Source: a virus
Taxonomy: Duplodnaviria; Heunggongvirae; Uroviricota; Caudoviricetes
DNA length: 28,397 bases
Reading direction: 5' to 3' (one strand)
IMG/VR virus record: IMGVR_UViG_2663762992_000009
Shown here: positions 7,468-27,197 of the stretch, piece by piece
Layout of the letters: every line of letters starts with the position of its first letter
Position numbering within the stretch: the stretch's first letter is position 1
Position numbers and translations under genes: made by a program
Notes under the pieces: generated by a model
Database searches by the model: none
Told to the model about the DNA's origin: nothing
Seen by the model: the letters and a program-made list of their open reading frames with translations, nothing else

Positions 7468-7543
<76 letters not shown>

Positions 7544-7546
7544 TTT

Positions 7547-7623
7547 TGGTGGCCCTTGCTGGACTTGAACCAGCGACCTGGCGATTATGAGTCGCACGCT
7601 CTGACCAACTGAGCTAAAGGGCC
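7547..7623 (-). tRNA. tRNA with CAU anticodon (Ile2-lysidine type or Met)
   Basis: Full cloverleaf on the minus strand: acceptor GGCCCTT/AAGGGCC, D-arm GCTC/GAGC, anticodon loop CTCATAA, T-arm GCTGG-TTCAAGT-CCAGC, CCA end; closely resembles the E. coli ileX sequence as I recall it. Confidence 0.85.
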
Positions 7624-8449: not shown

Positions 8450-8859
8450 TGTTCATCACTCCAAGTAAAAAAGGAATGAGAAAAACAAATCACCAGCAGG
8501 CTACAACAGTCAATCTGTTCGGCTGTAAATCACAAACAAGTTAAATAGACTGTTAACACCCACCCTACCTGAATTATTACGCCAAAAAAGGAGATAAAGC
8601 GATAAATCTTATTAGCATGTAACTATTGTTCAACTCAATAGAGCCCATACACTAAGTTTTATTGCCCCTAATAATCCGATGACCAACAGAATGATGCTAA
8701 TTAAGAATACCTGATTCGTTGTAAATCTGATACTGCGTAAATATGCCTTTAGAGCATTAGCAGTTCTGTATTTATTCTGCATTTTCCCGCTCAGAAATCA
8801 CATCAATGACCAATTTAAAAGTAGAGCCCGAATAATCTATCTCCACGACCCGATATGAG

Positions 8860-8963
8860 TGCGGTGCCGGTCGCAACCCGGTGAAACGTATCCATGGTGT
8901 GGTGCAATACATACTGGCAGAATGAATAGTGCCACACCCCTCACGCTGGTGAGATTCACCGCA
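8860..8963. repeat. repeat unit B
   Basis: Same conserved termini as unit A. Read on the minus strand it shows a 7-bp terminal helix, a D-arm-like hairpin (CTCA-CCAGCG-TGAG), a long central hairpin and a T-arm-like hairpin (CCGG-GTTGCGA-CCGG). Confidence 0.7.
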
Positions 8964-9073
8964 GGAGGTAACGTATAAACGGCAGGTGCTTTAGATCAAG
9001 CTTTTTATCATGTCGGCGAAATGAAAAAGGGCTCACCGAAGTGAGCCCTGAATTACCGCCGTTTTCAATTTGC

Positions 9074-9166
9074 CGCAGTGCCGGGTGCCTCCCGATGGTA
9101 TTAACCGCAACGTCAACAGTGGAAGCGAAACCTGACGATGCCCCTACGCTAGTGGGATTCACTGCA
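9074..9166. repeat. repeat unit C (more diverged copy)
   Basis: 5' end gcagtgccgg and 3' end cgctagtgggattcactgca match units A and B with a few substitutions. Confidence 0.6.
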
Positions 9167-9372
9167 ACGGGGGGAACCTATTACCCGCAGACAGCGGCTG
9201 ACAAGATATTTATTTTGCTGAAATGCCAAAATGTGAATCTGCGCATATGAAATTAAACAGAACTTAAACAATTGCAGATACGAACTTGATAGGTTTATGA
9301 AGAAATTACTACGGTCCTCAGGCTTCCCCCTATGAAGCACTTAAGCCTCTTACCTTTTCCAATTGTGATTTT

Positions 9373-9400
9373 GCCCGCTATCTGACGCGGGCCCTTTTTT
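9373..9400 (+). terminator. rho-independent terminator hairpin, plus orientation (element copy 2)
   Basis: GCCCGC (9373-9378) / GCGGGC (9387-9392) with an 8-nt loop, followed by CCTTTTTT; upstream sequence is conserved with copy 1 (atgaagc ... tgtgattttgcccg). Confidence 0.65.
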
Positions 9401-9416
9401 ATACGGAGAACTGAGA

Positions 9417-9491
9417 ATGCCGTGTCATGAAAAAATGGCTATCGCAATCTGTGTTATTGCGCTCATCTTCGCACTGATTTTTGGCAAGTAG
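9417..9491 (+). CDS. candidate 24-aa hydrophobic small ORF (MPCHEKMAIAICVIALIFALIFGK)
   Basis: ATG at 9417 preceded by GGAGA with 7-nt spacing; single hydrophobic helix; lies between a plus-strand terminator and a minus-strand terminator hairpin. Confidence 0.3.
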   Translation: MPCHEKMAIAICVIALIFALIFGK

Positions 9492-9506
9492 GTCCACCTG
9501 AAGCCG

Positions 9507-9541
9507 TCTTTTAAAAACGACAAAACCCGCACCGTGGCGGG
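9507..9541 (-). terminator. candidate tR'-like intrinsic terminator downstream of Q (minus strand)
   Basis: GC hairpin CCCGC/GCGGG (9526-9541); on the minus strand it is followed by UUUUGUCGUUUUUAAAA; about 270 nt downstream of the Q stop. Confidence 0.45.
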
Positions 9542-9807
9542 TTCATCTGGTGTTCATGTTCTGCATCCTTGACCTCGCGATACAGCTTTGCGAAGCATAC
9601 AGTGATTGAAGCAGTTTATGGCTCAAATTGCAATACTTTTTCAGCGACGTAATTTGACCTTAATCATATGCTTTATTACTCTTCGCCTGCATTTAAACAC
9701 TGATATAACTTAGTTATACTTCCATTCATCTTGCACATTGATATTTCCACAAAAATCACCCGCAGCTTTTTACTGTCAAGTTTCAGTTAGTGGATAAGCA
9801 CAACTCA

Positions 9808-10347
9808 TCACACATTCCTATCAATGGAATCCCGTAGCGGGATATAAAGCATGTATTCAACCATATACAGCCATTGGTCGATTCGTCGCCGACAGGTAAC
9901 ATAACTCCAGTCAGGGTATTTTTCCTGAAGTTTCTCAGCTATCTTTCGCTTACTCATTCCCCGTCCTTCGTAACGCTGGTGAAGCAGTGCCTTTAGTGCG
10001 GGATGATCTGCCAGAACTGCCCCGATAACCCGGTCGATTATCAGTGCTTCAGAATCAGTACAGTATGCAAGGTAGCTTTTCTGCTTACCGTTCAATATCT
10101 CACGTAAAAATTGCTCCAGTTCAGGCCTGGTAGTGCCTGATTTTTTAAGCAGCCTGAGCGCATCACGGGCGCCTGTGCGGGTGATTTTTTTACTGACCAG
10201 CAACTGATTGAAGATATTTCCCGGATGGCCATTTCCGATATAAGACCAGCGCCCCCACATTCTTAGCTTTCCCTGTACCCATAACGTCTCAAGCGTAGTG
10301 AGACGAAGCATTTCACCAGGTTTACCTGTCGTGACCGGGTAGATCAT
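9808..10347 (-). CDS. late-gene antiterminator Q-like protein
   Basis: 179-aa ORF immediately upstream of the tRNA/lysis region and after the nin genes; basic C-terminal region with HTH-like character (KRKIAEKL ... RRRIDQWL); start overlaps the upstream gene's stop. Confidence 0.75.
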   Translation of the reverse strand: MIYPVTTGKPGEMLRLTTLETLWVQGKLRMWGRWSYIGNGHPGNIFNQLLVSKKITRTGARDALRLLKKSGTTRPELEQFLREILNGKQKSYLAYCTDSEALIIDRVIGAVLADHPALKALLHQRYEGRGMSKRKIAEKLQEKYPDWSYVTCRRRIDQWLYMVEYMLYIPLRDSIDRNV

Positions 10348-10634
10348 ACTAATCCCTCCTCTCTCCAGATTTGTTGCGTACGCATTACGCCTTCGGCATG
10401 CATTAACCGAAGTTCGGTGCGGGTAAAGTCTGTTGTTTTTATCCGGCCATCAATCAGGTCATGACAACAGCTACAGGCAATAGATGCCTGCATATCGTTG
10501 GGTTTGGTTGATGCTCCACAGGTACCGGCCAGACGGTAATGGGCCAGAACCGAGGTTTCAGGGTTATGGTTACAGTATCCGGGAATTCTCACCTGGCACT
10601 GCCGACCTTTAGCTGCTTTACGTAACCCGGACAT
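10344..10634 (-). CDS. YbcO-like (DUF1364) nin-region protein, putative nuclease
   Basis: 96 aa; Cys-rich pattern (CQVRIPGYCNHNPETSVLAHYRL ... IACSCCHD) closely resembles E. coli DLP12 YbcO as I recall it. Confidence 0.75.
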   Translation of the reverse strand: MSGLRKAAKGRQCQVRIPGYCNHNPETSVLAHYRLAGTCGASTKPNDMQASIACSCCHDLIDGRIKTTDFTRTELRLMHAEGVMRTQQIWREEGLV

Positions 10635-11233
10635 CAGGCGAACTCCAGCAACTGCATCGCTACATTTTCAGCTTCCTGTGGTGTTCTGAATTTTCGACAG
10701 AGGATGAAATTCCACAGGACGTTAAAGACATCCTTATAGAATTGCCGGAACGTATCTTCATCCATACGGGAGAAAGAAATAGATTTGGGAATTCTGCGGC
10801 GACAATTATCCGGGAGAACAACTTCATCGAAGTAACCAGCCTGAACCGTCACCCATGCCCGGTATGGCTCGAAAGACTTCAGTAAGGCAACATCCCCAGT
10901 ACGTAACTGCCCTTCTTTCAACAGAAATTCATCCGCTGCGGAGGTTAAAACATCACCGTATTGATGACCGGACATCTCAACAAGATAAGTGACAAAGCGA
11001 TTTATCAGCGAAAGTTCATCTGGTGAAAGCACACCACCGACAGGTGTCCAGTAATCGAAGCCCAGTTGCAGAAGTTTGAAGAAACGCTTATGAAAGGCGT
11101 AGTTGCGGACACGTCTGAAATCAGCGTGTATCCACTCGCCAGTTTTGACTGAATGTACAAAGCCCTCACTCTCCGGTGTTGCCGGGAGCAGGATCCCTGA
11201 TGCGGTCTGTTTGACCAGTTGTAAGTGCGCCAT
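10634..11233 (-). CDS. conserved lambdoid nin-region protein (DUF1367-like, tentative)
   Basis: 199-aa ORF of normal GC, start/stop-coupled to the YbcO-like gene; family assignment is from memory only. Confidence 0.55.
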   Translation of the reverse strand: MAHLQLVKQTASGILLPATPESEGFVHSVKTGEWIHADFRRVRNYAFHKRFFKLLQLGFDYWTPVGGVLSPDELSLINRFVTYLVEMSGHQYGDVLTSAADEFLLKEGQLRTGDVALLKSFEPYRAWVTVQAGYFDEVVLPDNCRRRIPKSISFSRMDEDTFRQFYKDVFNVLWNFILCRKFRTPQEAENVAMQLLEFA

Positions 11234-11415: not shown

Positions 11416-12456
11416 TCATCGAACATTCGGTGATATTGCTATCTTTAGATCACTAGTAAGCATCGCGGCCTGCTTTTCTAAAGCCTCTAACATAAAATCT
11501 GTTTTGTCTTGTATCCTAACGAGTAAATAGAATGGTTCACTACTCGTACAGGTTAAACGTGATGTTGTAAAGTCATCACGGTGAGGTATTAATGCGCGAT
11601 AATTTCCTTCAGCGATAAACATAAAGCGAGCATTAGGATGTTCACTGAGCCACATATACTTATTCCTGCAAAAGAAAGTATCGCGTGTGTCATACTTCAT
11701 GGCAAATCCAAAACCGACTTTTATGATGGATAACGTATGTATACTAAATGCAACATATGAAATGCAGCCAATAAGAAATAATGGGACGAAAACTGACATT
11801 AAATAGTTATTATCATCATCAGTTGGCGTTACTTTCCTTTTCTTTACTTTTGAGGGCATCAATATTAAACAAATAATGCAAACAAGGTAAATGATGCAAT
11901 ACAATATAAAAATAAAAAGTAATGCTACAACTGCCGTCATGAGTTTATTGAATGTAGCATCAAATGGAATGTCAAACAAATTGGAAATTAGCGAGCGTGC
12001 AATATAATATGAAATTAATGATACAATTACCCACACATATTTAATTCCCAGGTTAATTTTTATGGCTATGTTTTTTTCTTCATTATCGAACGATTTTATG
12101 TGAGATGATATTGTGTATGTAATACACAATATCGTCACAAAAGCCAATGTATATGGAATGATGGTATTTATATAACCAATAACGTTAAAGGAAACAATTG
12201 TTAATAAAAACAGAAATACCGACAACAGTGCGGCATCTTGCGTTTTTTTATAATTTTTTCGAAGGCGAACGGCCTGTTGACTGGATGACTTTTTATTCCA
12301 ATTATTTTGTACGATTAATCCGCTGAGAATAATCATACCAAACCAAATAAGAATGGGGTATACAGGATCACTCTGAGGTATGATGACGAGCACTGCCATA
12401 AAAAACAATAAACTGTGAACAATCCCGAGGTGTAAGGAAGAGTATATACTTTTCAT
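11416..12456 (-). CDS. AT-rich polytopic membrane protein with C-terminal soluble domain (cargo; candidate superinfection-exclusion/defence protein)
   Basis: 346-aa ORF, strongly AT-rich; about seven hydrophobic segments in the first ~230 aa, then a ~110-aa hydrophilic tail; AAGG SD upstream of the ATG at 12456; about 180-bp gaps on both sides. Confidence 0.7.
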   Translation of the reverse strand: MKSIYSSLHLGIVHSLLFFMAVLVIIPQSDPVYPILIWFGMIILSGLIVQNNWNKKSSSQQAVRLRKNYKKTQDAALLSVFLFLLTIVSFNVIGYINTIIPYTLAFVTILCITYTISSHIKSFDNEEKNIAIKINLGIKYVWVIVSLISYYIARSLISNLFDIPFDATFNKLMTAVVALLFIFILYCIIYLVCIICLILMPSKVKKRKVTPTDDDNNYLMSVFVPLFLIGCISYVAFSIHTLSIIKVGFGFAMKYDTRDTFFCRNKYMWLSEHPNARFMFIAEGNYRALIPHRDDFTTSRLTCTSSEPFYLLVRIQDKTDFMLEALEKQAAMLTSDLKIAISPNVR

Positions 12457-19491: not shown

Positions 19492-22400
19492 ATGAGTGAT
19501 AAGAAAGAAGATTTCGCGCTGTACTGCCCTGTTAAAAATGAAGAGGCCAGGAAACGACTTGGAATAAAAGCAGGCTTTTTCTGGGCAACTGCAAAAAAAT
19601 TATCTGTGGCTGTTTCCCGCTGTATTGCTGCTATGGACGATAAGGGGTATGACGAGGATGACTTTAAAAAACCTGTTCGCGTCAATTACCCCGTCGTTAA
19701 CGACCTGCCTCCTGAAGGCGTGTTTGATACTGAATTCTGCAACCGTTACGAAAAAGGCGGTCAGGGTGGTATCACAATGGTACTTATCCCCGGCGCTGTT
19801 CCCGCCGATCCAATGCACGGCGAAGTCGGCAGGGATATTACTGGCAGCGGCAACGCAGACGCAGACGCAGACGCAGGCACAGACGCAGATAATGCTACGG
19901 ACAATACCGAAAGTACGCTCCTCCCCGCTTACGCTTATAACGTCAACGGCGAACTGATGTCGGAAGTGGAAAAGGAAATGTCGCAGCCTGTTTCAGGACT
20001 AAGTCTGCCACTTCGTTTCCTGGCGCAATTTAATAACGACTGTCCACAACATCAGGTCACACCAGAGCGTTTACGGGAGTTAAACCTTACAGAGCAGGAT
20101 CCCGACAGTCGTACCGGAACTATTTTACTCGCCATCCAGAACAGAAAGGAACAGCTCGAAAAACTGGACACAAAAAACCTGCATCCTTTGGCGACGTACA
20201 TTGAAAAAGTATTTCCCTGCGGAAAACGACCACAACTCAATGATGTCATTAATTTTATCGATGCCGTACTTAATACAGACTATGTCGATCGCGGACTGCT
20301 CGTTAAGGAATGGTGCGAAGGTCGTCGAGCCGCGTGCGTAGAGCATGTAACAGCACCAGAAACCAGGCGTGATAATACTGTGTCAGCGCAGACGGAAACG
20401 AAGACTACTGTCACTGAACGTCCGCGTCGTAGCGAAAAAACAACGCACCGGACGATTAATTATGAAATTGGCTGTGGCTTATATGACGGCGAGCTGGATC
20501 TTCATAACCTGAGGGAACCGCTGGATTTTGCGAAACGCATTATGGCGAAAGACCGGGAAGACTGGAAAGTATGGTCAGACACAATCAACTGCATCCCTGG
20601 CATCCTGAATTATGACCGCCAGACCATTATCGAGATGGTACGAAAAGCCCCCACCCCGACTTATCACAGTGCTGCACTGCGCCGCGAGTGGTGTGATTCT
20701 TATCTGCGAGCCTGGGGACGGCTCGATCCCGACTGGAGCCAGAGCGCCGCTGTCAAAACAGCAGAGTCACATGAAGATGTCTGTGCTGATATCAGGAAGG
20801 CCGGAAAGCGCCTGCGTGAAATTGAATCAGGAGTTGGGATCAATGAAGAAAAACAGACGACACAGGGAGAACTGGCAGATGAACCGTCAGCGCCTGAATC
20901 AGTGGAACCGGCTTCAGCTGAACATCAGCAGAATACGCAGCCGCTGGATGCTGAGGCATCTGTAAACACCACTAAAACGGAATTCGATGTATTTGCTCTA
21001 ATGCAGAACTCATCTGTTTATGGCAGCAAAAACACACAGGAGACGACCAGCAATGTGCAGGTTCAGGACGCTGAAAAGGATGAAAAACAGGCTGGTACTG
21101 AAGTTCAGTCAGGCGAAAGCAGTCTGGGAACTGGTGAAGAGTCAGATACCAGACAGCAAGCCGATGTAAACCAGAATACGGATTCTGTCGCCCAAAATAG
21201 CGATTCTGTAAACCAAACTGAACCAGTTTTGGCACAAACCGAGCCAGAAGTGCAATCTGACGAACCGGCTGTTGTTTACCCCGCTTACTTCGAACCAGGC
21301 CGCTATGAGGGTCTGCCGAACGAGGTTTATCACGCAGCCAACGGTATCAGCTCGACAATGGTAAAAGATGCGCGGGTGAGCCTGATGTACTTCAATGCGC
21401 GCCACGTAGAGAAAACCATTATCAAAGAACGCTCTCCTGTACTGGATATCGGTAACCTGGTGCATGCACTGGCGTTGCAGCCAGATCAACTCGATGAAGA
21501 ATTCAGCATTGAACCCGTAATTCCGGAAGGTGCATTTACCACCACGGCAACGATCCGCGCGTTTATTGATGAGCACAACGCCAGCCTGACAGCGATGCTG
21601 TCAGCCGACGACATCAAAGCACTGTTAGAAGAGTACAACGCCACCCTTCCTGCTCAGGTTCAGTTAGGTGGTTCCGTGGAGGAAACTGGCCAGAGCTATA
21701 TGTCGCTGCCAGAAGAGTTCCAGCGTCTCGAAGCGGACAAGAAGCAGACCGCAGCGGCAATGAAAGCCTGCATCAAGGAATACAACACCACACTGCCTGC
21801 ACAAGTGAAAATCAGCGGTAGCCGTGATGCGTTACTCGAGCAGTTAGCAATCATCAATCCTGACCTGGTGGCGCAGGAAGCGCAGAAGCCCGCGCAGTTG
21901 AAAGTGTCCGGCACCAAAGCGGATCTGATTCAGGCCGTGAAGTCTGTTAATCCTGATGCCATCTTCGCCGACGAACTGCTGGATGCGTGGCGCGAAAATA
22001 CGCAAGGGAAAGTGCTGGTCACCCGCCAGCAACTGAGCACTGCACTGAGCATTCAGAAAGCCCTGCTCGAGCACCCTACAGCGGGCAAGCTACTGACACA
22101 CCCGAGCCGCGCCGTTGAGGTGAGCTACTTCGGTTTTGACGACGAAACCGGTCTGGAAGTCCGCGTTCGTCCCGACCTTGAGATCGATCTTGACGGGGTG
22201 CGCATCGGCGCCGACCTGAAAACCATCAGCATGTGGAACATTAAACAGGAAGGTCTGCGCGCCAAACTGCACCGCGAAATCATCGACCGTGACTACCACC
22301 TGAGTGCTGCCATGTATTGCGAGACCGCAGCGCTTGACCAGTTCTTCTGGATTTTCGTCAACAAAGACGAGAACTACCACTGGATCGCCATCATCGAGGC

Positions 22401-22596
22401 ATCCGCCGAACTTCTGGAACTGGGCATGCTGGAGTACCGCAAGGCAATGCGCGCCATCGCTACCGGCTTTGACACTGGCGAGTGGCCAGCGCCGATCACC
22501 TCCGGTAACTCCGATGAAATAGCCGACTACACCGACGAACTGAACGATTTCGACACACGCCGCCTTGAAGCGCTGCGTACGGCACAAGGGGAATGA
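19492..22596 (+). CDS. recE: RecE-like exonuclease VIII (C-terminal PD-(D/E)XK nuclease domain, long disordered N-terminal/central region)
   Basis: 1034 aa; C-terminal region carries the catalytic-type pattern RPDLEIDLDGVRIGADLKT; large acidic, low-complexity central region; followed by a translationally coupled annealing-protein-like gene; position matches Rac-type recE-recT order. Confidence 0.75.
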   Translation: MSDKKEDFALYCPVKNEEARKRLGIKAGFFWATAKKLSVAVSRCIAAMDDKGYDEDDFKKPVRVNYPVVNDLPPEGVFDTEFCNRYEKGGQGGITMVLIPGAVPADPMHGEVGRDITGSGNADADADAGTDADNATDNTESTLLPAYAYNVNGELMSEVEKEMSQPVSGLSLPLRFLAQFNNDCPQHQVTPERLRELNLTEQDPDSRTGTILLAIQNRKEQLEKLDTKNLHPLATYIEKVFPCGKRPQLNDVINFIDAVLNTDYVDRGLLVKEWCEGRRAACVEHVTAPETRRDNTVSAQTETKTTVTERPRRSEKTTHRTINYEIGCGLYDGELDLHNLREPLDFAKRIMAKDREDWKVWSDTINCIPGILNYDRQTIIEMVRKAPTPTYHSAALRREWCDSYLRAWGRLDPDWSQSAAVKTAESHEDVCADIRKAGKRLREIESGVGINEEKQTTQGELADEPSAPESVEPASAEHQQNTQPLDAEASVNTTKTEFDVFALMQNSSVYGSKNTQETTSNVQVQDAEKDEKQAGTEVQSGESSLGTGEESDTRQQADVNQNTDSVAQNSDSVNQTEPVLAQTEPEVQSDEPAVVYPAYFEPGRYEGLPNEVYHAANGISSTMVKDARVSLMYFNARHVEKTIIKERSPVLDIGNLVHALALQPDQLDEEFSIEPVIPEGAFTTTATIRAFIDEHNASLTAMLSADDIKALLEEYNATLPAQVQLGGSVEETGQSYMSLPEEFQRLEADKKQTAAAMKACIKEYNTTLPAQVKISGSRDALLEQLAIINPDLVAQEAQKPAQLKVSGTKADLIQAVKSVNPDAIFADELLDAWRENTQGKVLVTRQQLSTALSIQKALLEHPTAGKLLTHPSRAVEVSYFGFDDETGLEVRVRPDLEIDLDGVRIGADLKTISMWNIKQEGLRAKLHREIIDRDYHLSAAMYCETAALDQFFWIFVNKDENYHWIAIIEASAELLELGMLEYRKAMRAIATGFDTGEWPAPITSGNSDEIADYTDELNDFDTRRLEALRTAQGE
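19855..19890 (+). repeat. in-frame hexanucleotide tandem repeat (GCAGAC)n within the recE-like gene
   Basis: Six consecutive 6-nt units (gcagac x3, gcaggc, acagac, gcagat) encoding ADADADAGTDAD. Confidence 0.9.
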
Positions 22597-23648
22597 TGAT
22601 GGAAAAAAACAACGTAGCAGTAATTGAACATAACGAACCGAGCACGATGAATAACACATCCCTGCTTCTGAATATCGACGTCATGGATCGCATGATGAAG
22701 CTAGCAGAGGTGATGTCTCAGGGCGTCGCGACAGTACCGAAACATCTACAGGGAAGACCTTCTGATTGTCTGGCAATAATCATGCAGGCCGCTCGTTGGG
22801 GTATGGACCCATTTGTTGTAGGACAGAAAACACACCTGGTTAACGGGGCTCTGGGTTATGAAGCACAGCTTTACAACGCTTTAATCACCAGCTCCAAAGT
22901 TGTACACGGGCGCTTTAAATACGAGTACGGCGGTGAGTGGGAAAAAATTGTTGGCAAAAAAGACGGGCGTGATGAATCAGGTTTGTTTGTTCGTGTCGGA
23001 GCAGTTCTTCGAGGCGAGACAGAGGTGACCTGGGGAGAGCCAATTTACCTTGCTGATATTACTACGCGAAATTCCCCTTTGTGGAAAACCGCACCTAAAC
23101 AGCAAATAGGTTATTTGGCCGTTAAGTATTGGGCGAGGACTTACTGCCCTGAAGTCACAATGGGTGTTTATGACAGAGAAGATCTGGAACAACGAACAGA
23201 GCGCGAAATTAACCCTGCACCAATCCAACGAATGAGCGCTGCTGAAATCGCAGGTGACACCGTCACAACCACACAAAACACGCAGGAATCGTCAGTAAAT
23301 ATCGACTCACTGGCTGATGTTTTCCGCGAACGCATCAATGCTACGCAGGATGTAGACAGCGCCAAAGTAGTCCGGGCTGATATCGAAAGCGCGAAGGTCA
23401 CACTCGGTTCGGCTCTGTTCACCGAACTGAAAAACAAGGCAGTGAAGCGCTATTACCTGGTAGATCACCGCAACAAAGTTGAAGCCGCGATCAACTCCCT
23501 GCCGTCTCCGGACGAACCGAATGCAGCAGAACGGTTCGGAGAAGTTGAGCGAGCTCTTGCTGCGGCCAAACGTCACCTGGGTGACGAGCTGCACGATCAG
23601 TTCAGCATCACCCTGGCAGATATGAAACCGGAATACATCACTGCATAA
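22593..23648 (+). CDS. putative single-strand annealing protein partner of RecE (RecT/Red-beta superfamily, assigned mainly by synteny)
   Basis: Start overlaps the recE-like stop (ATGATGATGG, coupled translation); 351 aa with a globular N-terminal part and an acidic C-terminal tail; no specific motif identified by eye. Confidence 0.55.
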   Translation: MMMEKNNVAVIEHNEPSTMNNTSLLLNIDVMDRMMKLAEVMSQGVATVPKHLQGRPSDCLAIIMQAARWGMDPFVVGQKTHLVNGALGYEAQLYNALITSSKVVHGRFKYEYGGEWEKIVGKKDGRDESGLFVRVGAVLRGETEVTWGEPIYLADITTRNSPLWKTAPKQQIGYLAVKYWARTYCPEVTMGVYDREDLEQRTEREINPAPIQRMSAAEIAGDTVTTTQNTQESSVNIDSLADVFRERINATQDVDSAKVVRADIESAKVTLGSALFTELKNKAVKRYYLVDHRNKVEAAINSLPSPDEPNAAERFGEVERALAAAKRHLGDELHDQFSITLADMKPEYITA

Positions 23649-25949: not shown

Positions 25950-27197
25950 ATGGCTGCTTTACCAACAGGTGTAGAAATCAGAGGTAGTAGCATCTGTATC
26001 TGGTTTATGTACAGAGGAAAACGTTGCCGCGAAACTCTCAGAGGATGGAGCATAACACCTGCTAATATCAGAAAAGCAGGTAATCTGCGCTCAATTATCG
26101 TCAGTGAAATCAACATGGGCGAGTTCGACTACCAGACTCGCTTCCCATCCTCCAAAAAAGCAATAAAAATTGTCACTACGGTTTCAGTCAGAACTCTAGG
26201 CGAACTCTGTGATCTGTGGCTGTCGATAAAAGAGACTGAACTGGCGGCTAACACCTTGCGCAAAACCAGCTCGCAGCTCGACACGCTGAAATTCATTATC
26301 AATAAAAACACGCCACTTTCGACGATTCGCCACAGCGACATTCTGAACTACCGCAACGAGCTGCTAAACGGAGAGACAAATTACCGAAACGCCACGAGAG
26401 GAAATAAAACCGGCCGTACCGCGCGCACGGTTGATAATTACATTTCCCTGCTCTGCTCCCTGCTCCGTTTTGCGCAGCACTCAGGGTTTATTAAGCACAA
26501 ACCTTTTGAGGGGGTTCGGAAGCTGCAAAAAGCCCGGATCAAACCGGACCCGCTCACAAAGCAGGAGTTTGCACAGTTGATGGAAGCAGAATACGGCCAG
26601 AGCCAGAATCTGTGGAAATTTGCAGTATATACGGGCCTTCGTCATGGTGAACTTGCTGCGCTGGCGTGGGAGGATGTGGATCTCGAGGCGGGAACAGTCA
26701 GCGTGTGCCGTAATCTGACCATTATCGGTACCTTCGGGCCGCCAAAGACAGATGCAGGCTACCGGACAATAAAGCTGCTGGAACCTGCGTTGGAAGCGTT
26801 GAAAGCACAGCGTGAACTTACCGCCCTCCAGCCAAAGTCAAAAATCGTTTTTAACCACCGTGAATATGGAAGGACAGAAACCCAGCGCGTGCACTTTGTT
26901 TTCATGCCAAGGATGCGTAAAGGCGAGCAAAAACCGTATTACAGCGTATCGAGCATCGGGCACCGTTGGAACGCTGCCGTAAAACGTGCTGGCATTCGTC
27001 GTCGGAATCCATATCACACACGGCATACTTTCGCCTGCTGGTTGTTATCCGCCGGTGCAAACCCGTCGTTTATCGCAAGTCAGATGGGACATGAAAATGC
27101 ACAAATGGTTTATGAAGTATATGCAACATGGATGGATGATATGAACAAAGATCAAATTGAACTAATTAATAGAAACTTACTAAACTCTTTATTTTAA
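25950..27197 (+). CDS. int: tyrosine site-specific integrase (lambda/Rac IntR-like)
   Basis: 415 aa; N-terminal arm-binding-like region (LPTGVEIRGSSICIWFMYRGKRCRETL); catalytic signature GLRHGELAAL ... HTRHTFACWLLSAGANPSFIASQMGH ... VY (R, H-x-x-R, Y). Confidence 0.9.
   Translation: MAALPTGVEIRGSSICIWFMYRGKRCRETLRGWSITPANIRKAGNLRSIIVSEINMGEFDYQTRFPSSKKAIKIVTTVSVRTLGELCDLWLSIKETELAANTLRKTSSQLDTLKFIINKNTPLSTIRHSDILNYRNELLNGETNYRNATRGNKTGRTARTVDNYISLLCSLLRFAQHSGFIKHKPFEGVRKLQKARIKPDPLTKQEFAQLMEAEYGQSQNLWKFAVYTGLRHGELAALAWEDVDLEAGTVSVCRNLTIIGTFGPPKTDAGYRTIKLLEPALEALKAQRELTALQPKSKIVFNHREYGRTETQRVHFVFMPRMRKGEQKPYYSVSSIGHRWNAAVKRAGIRRRNPYHTRHTFACWLLSAGANPSFIASQMGHENAQMVYEVYATWMDDMNKDQIELINRNLLNSLF

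What the first reader, a model, noticed from the sequence alone, without database searches (positions are those of the whole stretch)
9505..9807. Q-proximal region: intrinsic terminator about 270 nt downstream of Q suggests a short tR'-terminated transcript, but the promoter is unresolved
In lambda, the late promoter PR' gives a short terminated RNA unless Q modifies the polymerase. Here a good minus-strand terminator lies at 9507-9541, and a perfect TTGACA hexamer on the minus strand (plus coordinates 9774-9779) lies upstream. I could not find a convincing -10 at 16-18 bp spacing, so the promoter and Q-utilisation site positions stay open.
Basis: partly seen in the sequence, partly recalled or inferred. 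Interest (0 to 1): 0.35.

Follow-up and report, generated by a model that had tools for sequence, protein, structure and literature searches.

The report
Late promoter and terminator after Q
The promoter is not the TTGACA near the Q gene. It is a conserved, phage-21-like promoter, Q-binding and pause module about 150 bp further downstream, so this is an ordinary, well-understood kind of phage switch.

Summary
Both observed features exist: TTGACA at 9779-9774 (minus strand) with no usable -10, and an intrinsic terminator with stem 9544-9523 and T tract to 9513.

The TTGACA is not the late promoter. It lies in a 174-nt leftover (9807-9634) of a YecR-like lipoprotein gene. That gene is intact in a sister prophage and has lost 323 bp here.

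The real module is at 9633-9513 (minus strand):
- -35 TTGCAA (9633-9628)
- Q-binding 8-mer TGAGCCAT (9625-9618)
- extended-10 TG (9613-9612)
- -10 TTCAAT (9610-9605)
- sigma-dependent pause element TATGCT (9599-9594)
- terminator

The predicted short RNA is about 81-86 nt, not about 230-270 nt.

Four lines of evidence support this:
1. The 179-aa "Q" (DUF1133) is a remote homologue of phage 21 Q.
2. The element order matches the annotated phage 21 PR'. The TGAGC core lies the same 26 bp from the pause element.
3. The module is present downstream of about 80 related Q genes, nearly always abutting the stop codon.
4. The 8-mer changes with the Q recognition helix while everything else stays constant.

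No transcript has been mapped. The -10 is non-canonical (T at -11). The switch is of a known kind, in a Q subfamily whose site had not been described.

The parts
9808..10347 (-). Q-like antiterminator gene (179 aa, DUF1133; remote Q21-family member; recognition helix ...VTCRRRI...)
   Evidence: Pfam DUF1133 at 2.5e-86, and PF06530 at 29.8 bits against a cutoff of 26. PDB Q21 (6p18/6jnx) at E=2e-4 with the single sequence and 6e-8 with a family profile.
9634..9807 (-). Spacer between the Q stop and PR'.
   Evidence: Sister contig L036 carries an intact 113-aa gene here. The window matches L036 on both sides of a 323-bp gap flanked by (T/G)ATGA.
9628..9633 (-). PR' -35 hexamer TTGCAA
   Evidence: TTG is invariant at this position in all 30 aligned loci, both coding and non-coding, and in 50 IMG/VR loci.
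9618..9625 (-). Candidate Q-binding element TGAGCCAT (core TGAGCC, compare phage 21 QBE subsite TGAGCA)
   Evidence: The core starts 26 bp upstream of the pause element, the same as QBEu in phage 21. The 8-mer co-varies with the Q recognition helix.
9605..9613 (-). Extended -10: TG (9613-9612), C, then TTCAAT (9610-9605)
   Evidence: 17-bp spacer from the -35. TG is present in 24 of 26 loci that have the non-canonical TTNAAT hexamer and in 0 of 4 loci with a canonical TAnnnT hexamer. Rac-SA53 has TATCTT at exactly this position.
9597..9600 (-). Predicted transcription start (most likely A9598, 7 nt after the -10)
   Evidence: Inference from promoter geometry only. In phage 21 the annotated start is 1 nt before the pause element.
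9594..9599 (-). Sigma-dependent pause element (-10-like) TATGCT
   Evidence: The TA..CT pattern keeps T1, A2 and T6 invariant in all 30 loci and the 50 IMG/VR modules. It equals the annotated SDPE TAAGCT of phage 21.
9573..9593 (-). Conserved early-transcribed block TCGCAAAGCTGTATCGCGAGG. It includes a second -10-like AAAGCT at 9589-9584. Its role is unknown.
   Evidence: It is identical or nearly identical in the window and in the class-A loci of several genera. The core GC[AG]AAGCT persists in Providencia and Edwardsiella phages.
9513..9544 (-). Intrinsic terminator tR' (stem 9544-9523, U tract to 9513)

Best explanation
Window 9633-9513 (minus strand) is the late-gene regulatory cassette (PR' / qut / tR') of a Rac-like lambdoid prophage, and it is served by the DUF1133-type Q protein encoded at 10347-9808. 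The proposed mechanism has four steps. First, sigma-70 RNA polymerase starts at a weak-looking extended -10 promoter (TTGCAA, 17 bp ending in TGc, then TTCAAT), at about A9598. Second, sigma region 2 re-binds the -10-like TATGCT (9599-9594) in the first transcribed bases and pauses the polymerase after roughly 12-17 nt. Third, without Q the polymerase goes on to terminate at 9544-9513, leaving an RNA of about 81-86 nt. Fourth, with Q, the protein bound at TGAGCCAT (9625-9618) loads onto the paused polymerase as phage 21 Q does. The polymerase then reads through tR' and at least three further terminators (9049-9028, 7317-7292, 7267-7251) into holin, endolysin, spanin and terminase. What is shown here: homology of Q to Q21, the order and spacing of the elements, their conservation, the co-variation between QBE and recognition helix, and the terminator. 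What is inferred: the start site, the pause, Q binding and readthrough.
For: 1. The Q gene is homologous to Q21. Pfam PF06530 scores above its cutoff. The family profile hits PDB Q21 at E=6e-8, with the next hit at 2.5e-3. Recognition-helix residues T-C-R-R align with Q21 T125-C-R127-R128, which contact the QBE according to PMC6606751.
2. Phage 21 PR' is annotated as TTGACA-17-AACACT-7-TAAGCT with QBE subsites ATTGAGCA and AATGAGCA. The window has TTGCAA-17-TTCAAT-5-TATGCT, and its TGAGCC core starts 26 bp before the pause element, the same distance as QBEu.
3. The composite motif occurs once in the window and in 0 of 100 shuffles.
4. The same architecture is found after 29 other Q genes from many enterobacterial genera, and from phages with only 33-37% identical Q (Providencia: TTGACT-16-TATAGT-7-TATGCT; Edwardsiella: TTGACA-16-TAGTAT-7-TACGCT). 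In those, the upstream promoter is canonical.
5. In 50 IMG/VR loci with an otherwise constant module, the 8-mer at spacer positions 3-10 tracks the helix: TCEKR with TTACG(C/T)A, TCRRR with TGAGCC, TCKNR with TTGCCCA, TCERR with TGACGCA. The same tracking holds across different transcript classes. The window Q is overall closer to the TCEKR and TCCSR proteins (63-64% against 58-59%), yet it carries the TCRRR helix and a TGAGCC site.
6. In E. coli only window 9620-9515 is conserved (296 genomes), and there it starts right at the Q stop codon.
7. The terminator is conserved in all 23 aligned homologous transcripts. Lysis and terminase genes lie downstream on the same strand, behind further terminators.
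Against: There are no transcript data, so the start site, pause and Q dependence are all inferred. The -10 hexamer TTCAAT has T instead of the near-universal A at -11, and the -35 matches only 4 of 6; the consensus scan did not call this promoter. Only one QBE subsite is recognisable, whereas Q21 uses two direct repeats. The gap from -10 to pause element is 5 bp against 7 in phage 21, which places the pause element at about -1 to +5, closer to the lambda arrangement. The loci are phylogenetically related, so counts of loci overstate independent support. The helix-to-site code is not strictly one to one: TCRNR pairs with TTATCC in most loci but with TTGCCAA in L097, and TCCSR also pairs with TTATCCGG.
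Confidence: 0.82

Rival explanations
1. One reading: the late promoter uses the TTGACA at 9779-9774 as its -35, perhaps with an unusual or extended -10. The short transcript would then be about 230-270 nt and end at the same terminator.
For: The hexamer is a perfect consensus, lies on the correct strand and is downstream of Q.
Against: There is no -10-like hexamer at 16-18 bp. The hexamer occurs 8 times in the window, fewer than the chance expectation of about 20. The whole 9807-9634 segment is missing from the homologous loci, where the conserved module starts between -26 and +47 nt of the Q stop. The segment is a deletion remnant of a YecR-like gene cassette.
Confidence: 0.04
2. TATGCT (9599-9594) is itself the promoter -10 rather than a pause element. 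Transcription would start at about 9587, and the upstream TTG...TTCAAT conservation would serve Q binding or something else.
For: TA..CT keeps the three most important -10 positions (T-12, A-11, T-7), whereas TTCAAT lacks A-11. Many class-B loci have TGn directly before TAGGCT.
Against: There is no -35 at 16-18 bp from it. In phage 21 the same hexamer (TAAGCT) is the annotated pause element, one nucleotide after the start site. Providencia, Edwardsiella and Rac-SA53 relatives have canonical promoters (TATAGT, TAGTAT, TATCTT) at the upstream position. TTG at 17 bp and TG at -15/-14 are conserved relative to TTCAAT, not relative to TATGCT. No further -10-like pause element with T at its last position follows in class B.
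Confidence: 0.07
3. The conserved 9633-9513 element is a self-standing small-RNA gene, or merely the terminator of the early (Q) operon or of the convergent + strand small ORF. It would have no Q-dependent antitermination role.
For: Short PR' RNAs can act as sRNAs, as StxS does (PMC7547250) and IsrK does (PMC4825925). The transcribed block 9593-9573 is more conserved than a pause site would seem to need. The terminator faces a + strand ORF that ends at 9491.
Against: The co-variation between Q helix and 8-mer ties the element to Q. Its position always abuts Q and lies upstream of the lysis genes. An sRNA function would be additional to the antitermination role, not exclusive of it. There is no Rfam family hit; isrK scores only 14.5 bits against a cutoff of 50.
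Confidence: 0.07

Closest known systems
Phage 21 late cassette (Q21, PR'21 with QBE, SDPE and terminator; PDB 6p18/6jnx)
   Same: The Q protein is homologous (profile E=6e-8) and keeps the T-C-R-R recognition helix. The element order is the same: -35, QBE in the spacer, -10, -10-like pause element TA(A/T)GCT, then a terminator within about 50-85 nt. The TGAGC core lies 26 bp upstream of the pause element. tRNA and lysis genes lie downstream.
   Different: Only one recognisable QBE subsite, against two direct repeats in phage 21. The DUF1133 proteins lack the 13-residue loop of the Q21 helix-turn[loop]helix, including R113, and have a roughly 35-residue N-terminal insertion. The -10 is TTCAAT with an extended TG, against AACACT. 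The gap from -10 to pause element is 5 bp rather than 7. The short RNA is longer (about 81-86 nt against about 50 nt).
Lambda PR' / 6S RNA / Q-lambda
   Same: A constitutive late promoter, a -10-like pause element at the very start of the transcript (in lambda +1 to +6, from my own knowledge), a Q site between -35 and -10, and a short terminated RNA in lysogens.
   Different: Q-lambda belongs to an unrelated protein family (PF03589). No -35-like element is evident here. The lambda RNA is 194 nt.
Gifsy-1 AntQ / IsrK (Salmonella)
   Same: AntQ-type proteins are DUF1133 relatives, about 63-65% identical to the window Q. IsrK is likewise a short terminated RNA made immediately downstream of the Q gene.
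   Different: The window RNA is not an IsrK family member (14.5 bits against a cutoff of 50). The IsrK loci carry a different promoter (TTGACT-18-TATATT) followed by c4-a1b1 and C4 antisense elements.
StxS (short PR' transcript of Stx phages acting as an sRNA)
   Same: A short RNA by-product of an antitermination-controlled late promoter (PMC7547250).
   Different: No sequence relationship was found, and no evidence here for Hfq binding or for targets.

Membership tests
Q21-type (PF06530) Q-dependent late-gene cassette | Antiterminator protein homologous to Q21/Q933W | tested here: met
   PF06530 at 29.8 bits against a cutoff of 26. PDB Q21 at E=2e-4 with the single sequence and 6e-8 with the profile. 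The homology is remote; the main family assignment is DUF1133.
Q21-type (PF06530) Q-dependent late-gene cassette | Cassette lies directly downstream of Q on the same strand and upstream of the late (lysis/morphogenesis) genes | tested here: met
   The -35 starts 175 nt after the stop in the window, because of a moron remnant. In 79 other loci it starts between -26 and +47. Holin, endolysin-like, spanin-like and terminase genes lie downstream.
Q21-type (PF06530) Q-dependent late-gene cassette | Sigma-70 promoter (PR') | tested here: inconclusive
   TTGCAA-17-TTCAAT with TG at -15/-14. Each hexamer matches 4 of 6, and A-11 is missing. The consensus scan did not call it. Conservation and canonical equivalents in relatives support it. 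Promoter activity was not measured.
Q21-type (PF06530) Q-dependent late-gene cassette | Q-binding element in the -35/-10 spacer recognised by the HTH recognition helix | tested here: met
   TGAGCCAT lies at spacer positions 3-10, and the 8-mer co-varies with the helix in about 80 loci. This is sequence evidence only; binding was not measured.
Q21-type (PF06530) Q-dependent late-gene cassette | QBE made of two direct-repeat subsites bound by two Q protomers | tested here: not met
   The position 8 bp downstream of the core reads AAACTG or AAAGTG in all helix classes and does not co-vary. The Q21 loop that links the two protomers is absent.
Q21-type (PF06530) Q-dependent late-gene cassette | -10-like sigma-dependent pause element in the initial transcribed region | tested here: met
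   TATGCT lies 5 bp after the -10. T1, A2 and T6 are invariant across all loci. Phage 21's annotated SDPE is TAAGCT. Pausing itself cannot be tested here.
Q21-type (PF06530) Q-dependent late-gene cassette | Intrinsic terminator shortly downstream, giving a short RNA | tested here: met
Q21-type (PF06530) Q-dependent late-gene cassette | Q-dependent readthrough of the terminator | not testable with these tools
   Needs in vitro transcription or a reporter assay.
Rfam isrK (RF01394) | Score at or above the gathering threshold of the covariance model | tested here: not met
   14.5 bits against 50, E about 0.4-1. True isrK copies in L002 and L006 score 67-81 bits.
Pfam DUF1133 | Full-length match to the family model | tested here: met
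   288 bits, residues 1-174 of 176 model positions.

The most novel reading that the evidence does not exclude
DUF1133 (AntQ/Rac-type) antiterminators may be a distinct, loop-less variant of the Q21 family that loads from a single 8-bp site rather than a double one. That site would follow a readable recognition code: TCRRR with TGAGCC, TCEKR with TTACGCA, TCESR with TTGCGCGG, TCKNR with TTGCCCA, TCERR with TGACGCA, and T(Y/H)Q(D/N)R with TTACCGA. If so, one could predict from sequence which prophage Q proteins can cross-activate which late operons, including toxin-bearing ones, in polylysogens.
Probability: 0.45. Interest if true: 0.5.

Novelty: new member of a known kind. Interest (0 to 1): 0.3.

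Why it matters
For this window, the result settles where late transcription starts and where Q must act. More generally, DUF1133-type Q proteins are common in enterobacterial prophages. At least 594 relatives are present in IMG/VR, the module occurs in 296 complete E. coli genomes, and Gifsy-1 AntQ is a member. I found no description of their promoter or Q-utilisation site in the papers searched. The element map and the helix-to-site pairing give directly testable predictions. They could help annotate late promoters, short PR' RNAs and possible Q cross-talk between co-resident prophages. Conceptually this remains the textbook Q switch.

Tried and rejected
1. Rfam at gathering thresholds finds nothing in 9500-9810. 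At permissive thresholds there is a full-length but insignificant isrK match (14.5 bits), rejected as generic hairpin-plus-terminator similarity.
2. I considered a 5' hairpin that begins in the GCT of the pause element (class A GCUUCGC...GCGAGGC; class B GCUCGG...CUGAGC). It is not the minimum-energy fold of the window RNA. The whole RNA is no more stable than shuffles (z = -0.28), and RNAalifold over all classes keeps only the terminator. It is therefore not claimed.
3. Alternative registers for the -10 (16- or 18-bp spacers) fit some class-B loci (TAAATT) but not the window (TCAATC).
4. A second, phage-21-like QBE subsite 8 bp downstream was not found.
5. Megablast against phages and E. coli found no close relative of the whole region; only the 105-bp module matched, at about 80%.
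7. The host species was not identified. The one genome-contig scan gave Q relatives of at most 66% identity.
8. The 24-aa + strand ORF has no Pfam/NCBIfam family match and no E. coli counterpart.

Full report
**Context.** The window is a Rac-like lambdoid prophage.
- On the + strand lie integrase (25950-27197) and recE/recT-like genes (19492-23648).
- On the minus strand, in order, lie replication genes, a nin-like block (DUF1367 11233-10634, YbcO 10634-10344), a 179-aa DUF1133 protein (10347-9808) and a 2.6-kb stretch of accessory elements.
- That stretch is followed by a lambda-family holin (7211-6867), an endolysin-like ORF, a spanin-like ORF and the terminase genes.

The finding concerns the DNA just downstream of the DUF1133 gene.

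**Check of the observation.** Both features are present.
- TTGACA is at 9779-9774 on the minus strand. It is one of 8 copies in the window, where shuffles give about 20, so it is not informative by itself.
- Nothing resembling a -10 follows it at 16-18 bp. The consensus scan reports no minus-strand promoter in 8500-11000.
- The terminator is a good one: stem GAACCCGC/GCGGGTTT at 9544-9523, followed by TGTCGTTTTT. It folds at -13.3 kcal/mol, z = -1.96.

**Is the gene a Q?**
- The protein is a full-length DUF1133 member. It also passes the Pfam cutoff of PF06530, which Yin et al. name as the Q21/Q933W family (bioRxiv 10.1101/651190).
- Against PDB sequences, the only significant hits are the phage 21 Q structures: E=2e-4 for the single sequence and 6e-8 for a profile of 18 family members, with the next hit at 2.5e-3.
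- The alignment places the window's V-T-C-R-R-R on Q21 A124-T125-C126-R127-R128, the recognition helix that reads the QBE (PMC6606751).
- The 13-residue loop of the Q21 helix-turn[loop]helix, which includes R113, has no counterpart in DUF1133 proteins.
- Gifsy-1 AntQ-type proteins are 63-65% identical to the window protein. They were recognised here by isrK lying immediately downstream.

**Where the conserved element is.** A megablast of 8900-10400 against 5,426 complete E. coli genomes matched only window 9620-9515, at about 80% identity in 296 genomes. In the example examined, that segment begins right at the stop codon of a DUF1133 gene in a Rac prophage next to trkG. It lies about 150 bp further downstream and runs into the terminator.

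**Architecture.** I collected the sequence downstream of Q from these sources:
- 30 species-representative genomes
- four phage records, including Providencia and Edwardsiella phages whose Q is only 33-37% identical
- phage 21 itself

Anchored on one hexamer, the loci align without gaps. The shared pattern, in order, is:
- TTGnnn
- a 16-17 bp spacer
- a -10 hexamer
- a 5 or 7 bp gap
- TA..CT
- 45-75 nt further on, a terminator

Phage 21 is annotated, with literature references, as follows:
- -35 TTGACA
- QBEu ATTGAGCA and QBEd AATGAGCA in the spacer
- -10 AACACT
- start site 7 nt later
- sigma-dependent pause element TAAGCT(G) from +2
- terminator

The window reads:
- -35 TTGCAA (9633-9628)
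- spacer TTTGAGCCATAAACTGC
- -10 TTCAAT (9610-9605)
- gap CACTG
- pause element TATGCT (9599-9594)

Its TGAGCC core starts 26 bp before TATGCT, exactly the distance from QBEu to the SDPE in phage 21. The composite pattern occurs once in the window and in none of 100 shuffles.

**Which hexamer is the promoter -10?** TTCAAT is odd because it has T at -11. Four observations still place the promoter there rather than at TATGCT.
- The TTG at 17 bp is invariant whether it lies in coding or non-coding DNA.
- TG sits at -15/-14 in 24 of the 26 loci that have TTNAAT, and in none of the four loci that have a canonical TAnnnT hexamer at that position. This is the pattern expected of a compensating extended -10.
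- The four exceptions are unambiguous promoters at the same place: phage 21 (experimentally characterised), Rac-SA53 TTGATT-17-TATCTT, Providencia TTGACT-16-TATAGT and Edwardsiella TTGACA-16-TAGTAT.
- TATGCT has no -35 partner. It corresponds to the known pause element of phage 21.

The start is therefore predicted at about A9598, and the terminated RNA at about 81-86 nt.

**The Q site.** The strongest argument is protein-DNA co-variation.
- In the first set, the helix type predicts the 8-mer at spacer positions 3-10 whatever the transcribed region looks like:
  - TCRRR with TGAGC(C/A), in the window, 13 other loci and phage 21; the remaining two TCRRR loci carry the near-matches TGAACC (L008) and TGCACC (L012)
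  - TCESR with TTGCGCGG (5 loci)
  - TCEKR with TTACGCA (5 loci)
  - TCRNR with TTATCCAG (2 loci)
  - T(Y/H)Q(D/N)R with TTACCGA (2 loci)
- An independent IMG/VR sample gave 50 modules in which the -10, the conserved TA..CT pause hexamer and the transcribed block are essentially constant. At least 594 relatives exist there, and the best 80 were examined. The 8-mer again follows the helix:
  - TCEKR with TTACG(C/T)A
  - TCRRR with TGAGCC
  - TCKNR with TTGCCCA
  - TCERR with TGACGCA
- The window protein is overall closer to the TCEKR and TCCSR proteins (63-64% identity) than to the class-B TCRRR proteins (58-59%). Yet it carries TCRRR and a TGAGCC site.
- The code is not perfectly one to one. 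One TCRNR protein pairs with TTGCCAA, and TCCSR shares TTATCCGG with TCRNR. The loci are also related by descent, so the counts are not independent events.
- The position 8 bp downstream, where phage 21 has its second subsite, reads AAA(C/G)TG in every class and does not co-vary. Together with the missing loop, this suggests a single specific subsite. That is an inference.

**Why the window differs near Q.** Contigs encoding exactly this Q protein are common (74 index blocks). Three of the four examined are identical to the window over 8900-9820. The fourth (L036) has a 113-aa YecR-like lipoprotein gene between Q and the module. The window form is that arrangement minus 323 bp, removed between two (T/G)ATGA repeats. 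What remains is the gene's upstream region, which contains the TTGACA, and its last 17 codons (9729-9676). In every other locus the -35 starts between -26 and +47 nt of the Q stop; in the window it starts at +175.

**Downstream.** Between tR' and the holin, the minus strand carries the following:
- an STnc100-family RNA with its own terminator (9195-9018)
- a DoxX gene
- a tRNA-Met and a truncated tRNA-like sequence
- two more terminator-like hairpins just before the holin

This layout fits a processive antiterminator acting from PR'.

**What remains open.**
- No transcript has been mapped.
- The reason for the conserved T at -11 is unknown.
- The block TCGCAAAGCTGTATCGCGAGG (9593-9573) is unexplained. 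Its core survives even in the Providencia and Edwardsiella phages, and it contains a second -10-like AAAGCT. It overlaps the region where the paused polymerase should sit, but class-B loci have a different block there.
- A conserved RNA structure other than the terminator was not supported.
- The short RNA might also act as an sRNA, as argued for StxS and IsrK. Nothing here tests that.

**Verdict.** The feature is the PR'/qut/tR' cassette of a DUF1133-type, Q21-related antiterminator. It is a new, uncharacterised member of a well-known kind of switch.

Noticed in passing
window 9634-9807 (-); L036 4541-5040: A YecR-like lipoprotein moron sits between Q and PR' in a sister prophage. The window has lost 323 bp of it between (T/G)ATGA repeats, leaving the upstream region and the last 17 codons (9729-9676).
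   Followed up: yes
window 9373-9491 (+): A 24-aa hydrophobic ORF (MPCHEKMAIAICVIALIFALIFGK, 9417-9491) has GGAG 9 nt upstream. It lies immediately after a + strand terminator-like hairpin (9373-9392) and converges on the PR' terminator. It looks like a small membrane peptide or type-I-toxin-like gene. It has no Pfam/NCBIfam family match and no E. coli counterpart.
   Followed up: partly
window 9018-9195 (-): An STnc100-family sRNA (Rfam RF02076, 66 bits) with its own terminator, lying inside the late transcription unit.
   Followed up: partly
window 7479-7623 (-): tRNA-Met (CAT) at 7623-7547, followed by a truncated tRNA-like sequence at 7536-7479. The truncated one is found by Rfam (model positions 8-63) but not by ARAGORN. 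Both lie between PR' and the lysis genes, as in phage 21 and Stx phages.
   Followed up: no
window 9573-9593 (-): The early-transcribed block TCGCAAAGCTGTATCGCGAGG is conserved across genera. It contains a second -10-like AAAGCT (9589-9584) 10 bp after the pause element. Its function is unknown.
   Followed up: partly
L002 3575-3776; L006 3588-3768: In AntQ-type loci (TCCSR or YATCRNR helix), the Q gene is followed at once by isrK overlapping c4-a1b1 targets, then a C4 antisense RNA. This is a P1/P7 immI-like cassette occupying the place where PR' sits elsewhere, and its promoter spacer contains TTATCCGG.
   Followed up: partly
L040 (Rac-SA53) 1238-1350: A mosaic late cassette: the QBE is of the TCEKR type (TTACGCA), but the -10 is TATCTT, the pause element is TAAGAT, and GCCGTT follows as in phage 21.
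   Followed up: no
L008-L028 class-B loci, last ~45 nt of the Q gene: In class-B loci the Q reading frame continues for 14 extra codons through the -35, QBE and -10 of its own late promoter, and the stop codon lies inside the -10 hexamer. Coding and regulatory sequence therefore overlap.
   Followed up: no
window 11416-12456 (-): A 346-aa multi-pass membrane ORF between the replication genes and the nin-like genes, with no NCBIfam match.
   Followed up: no
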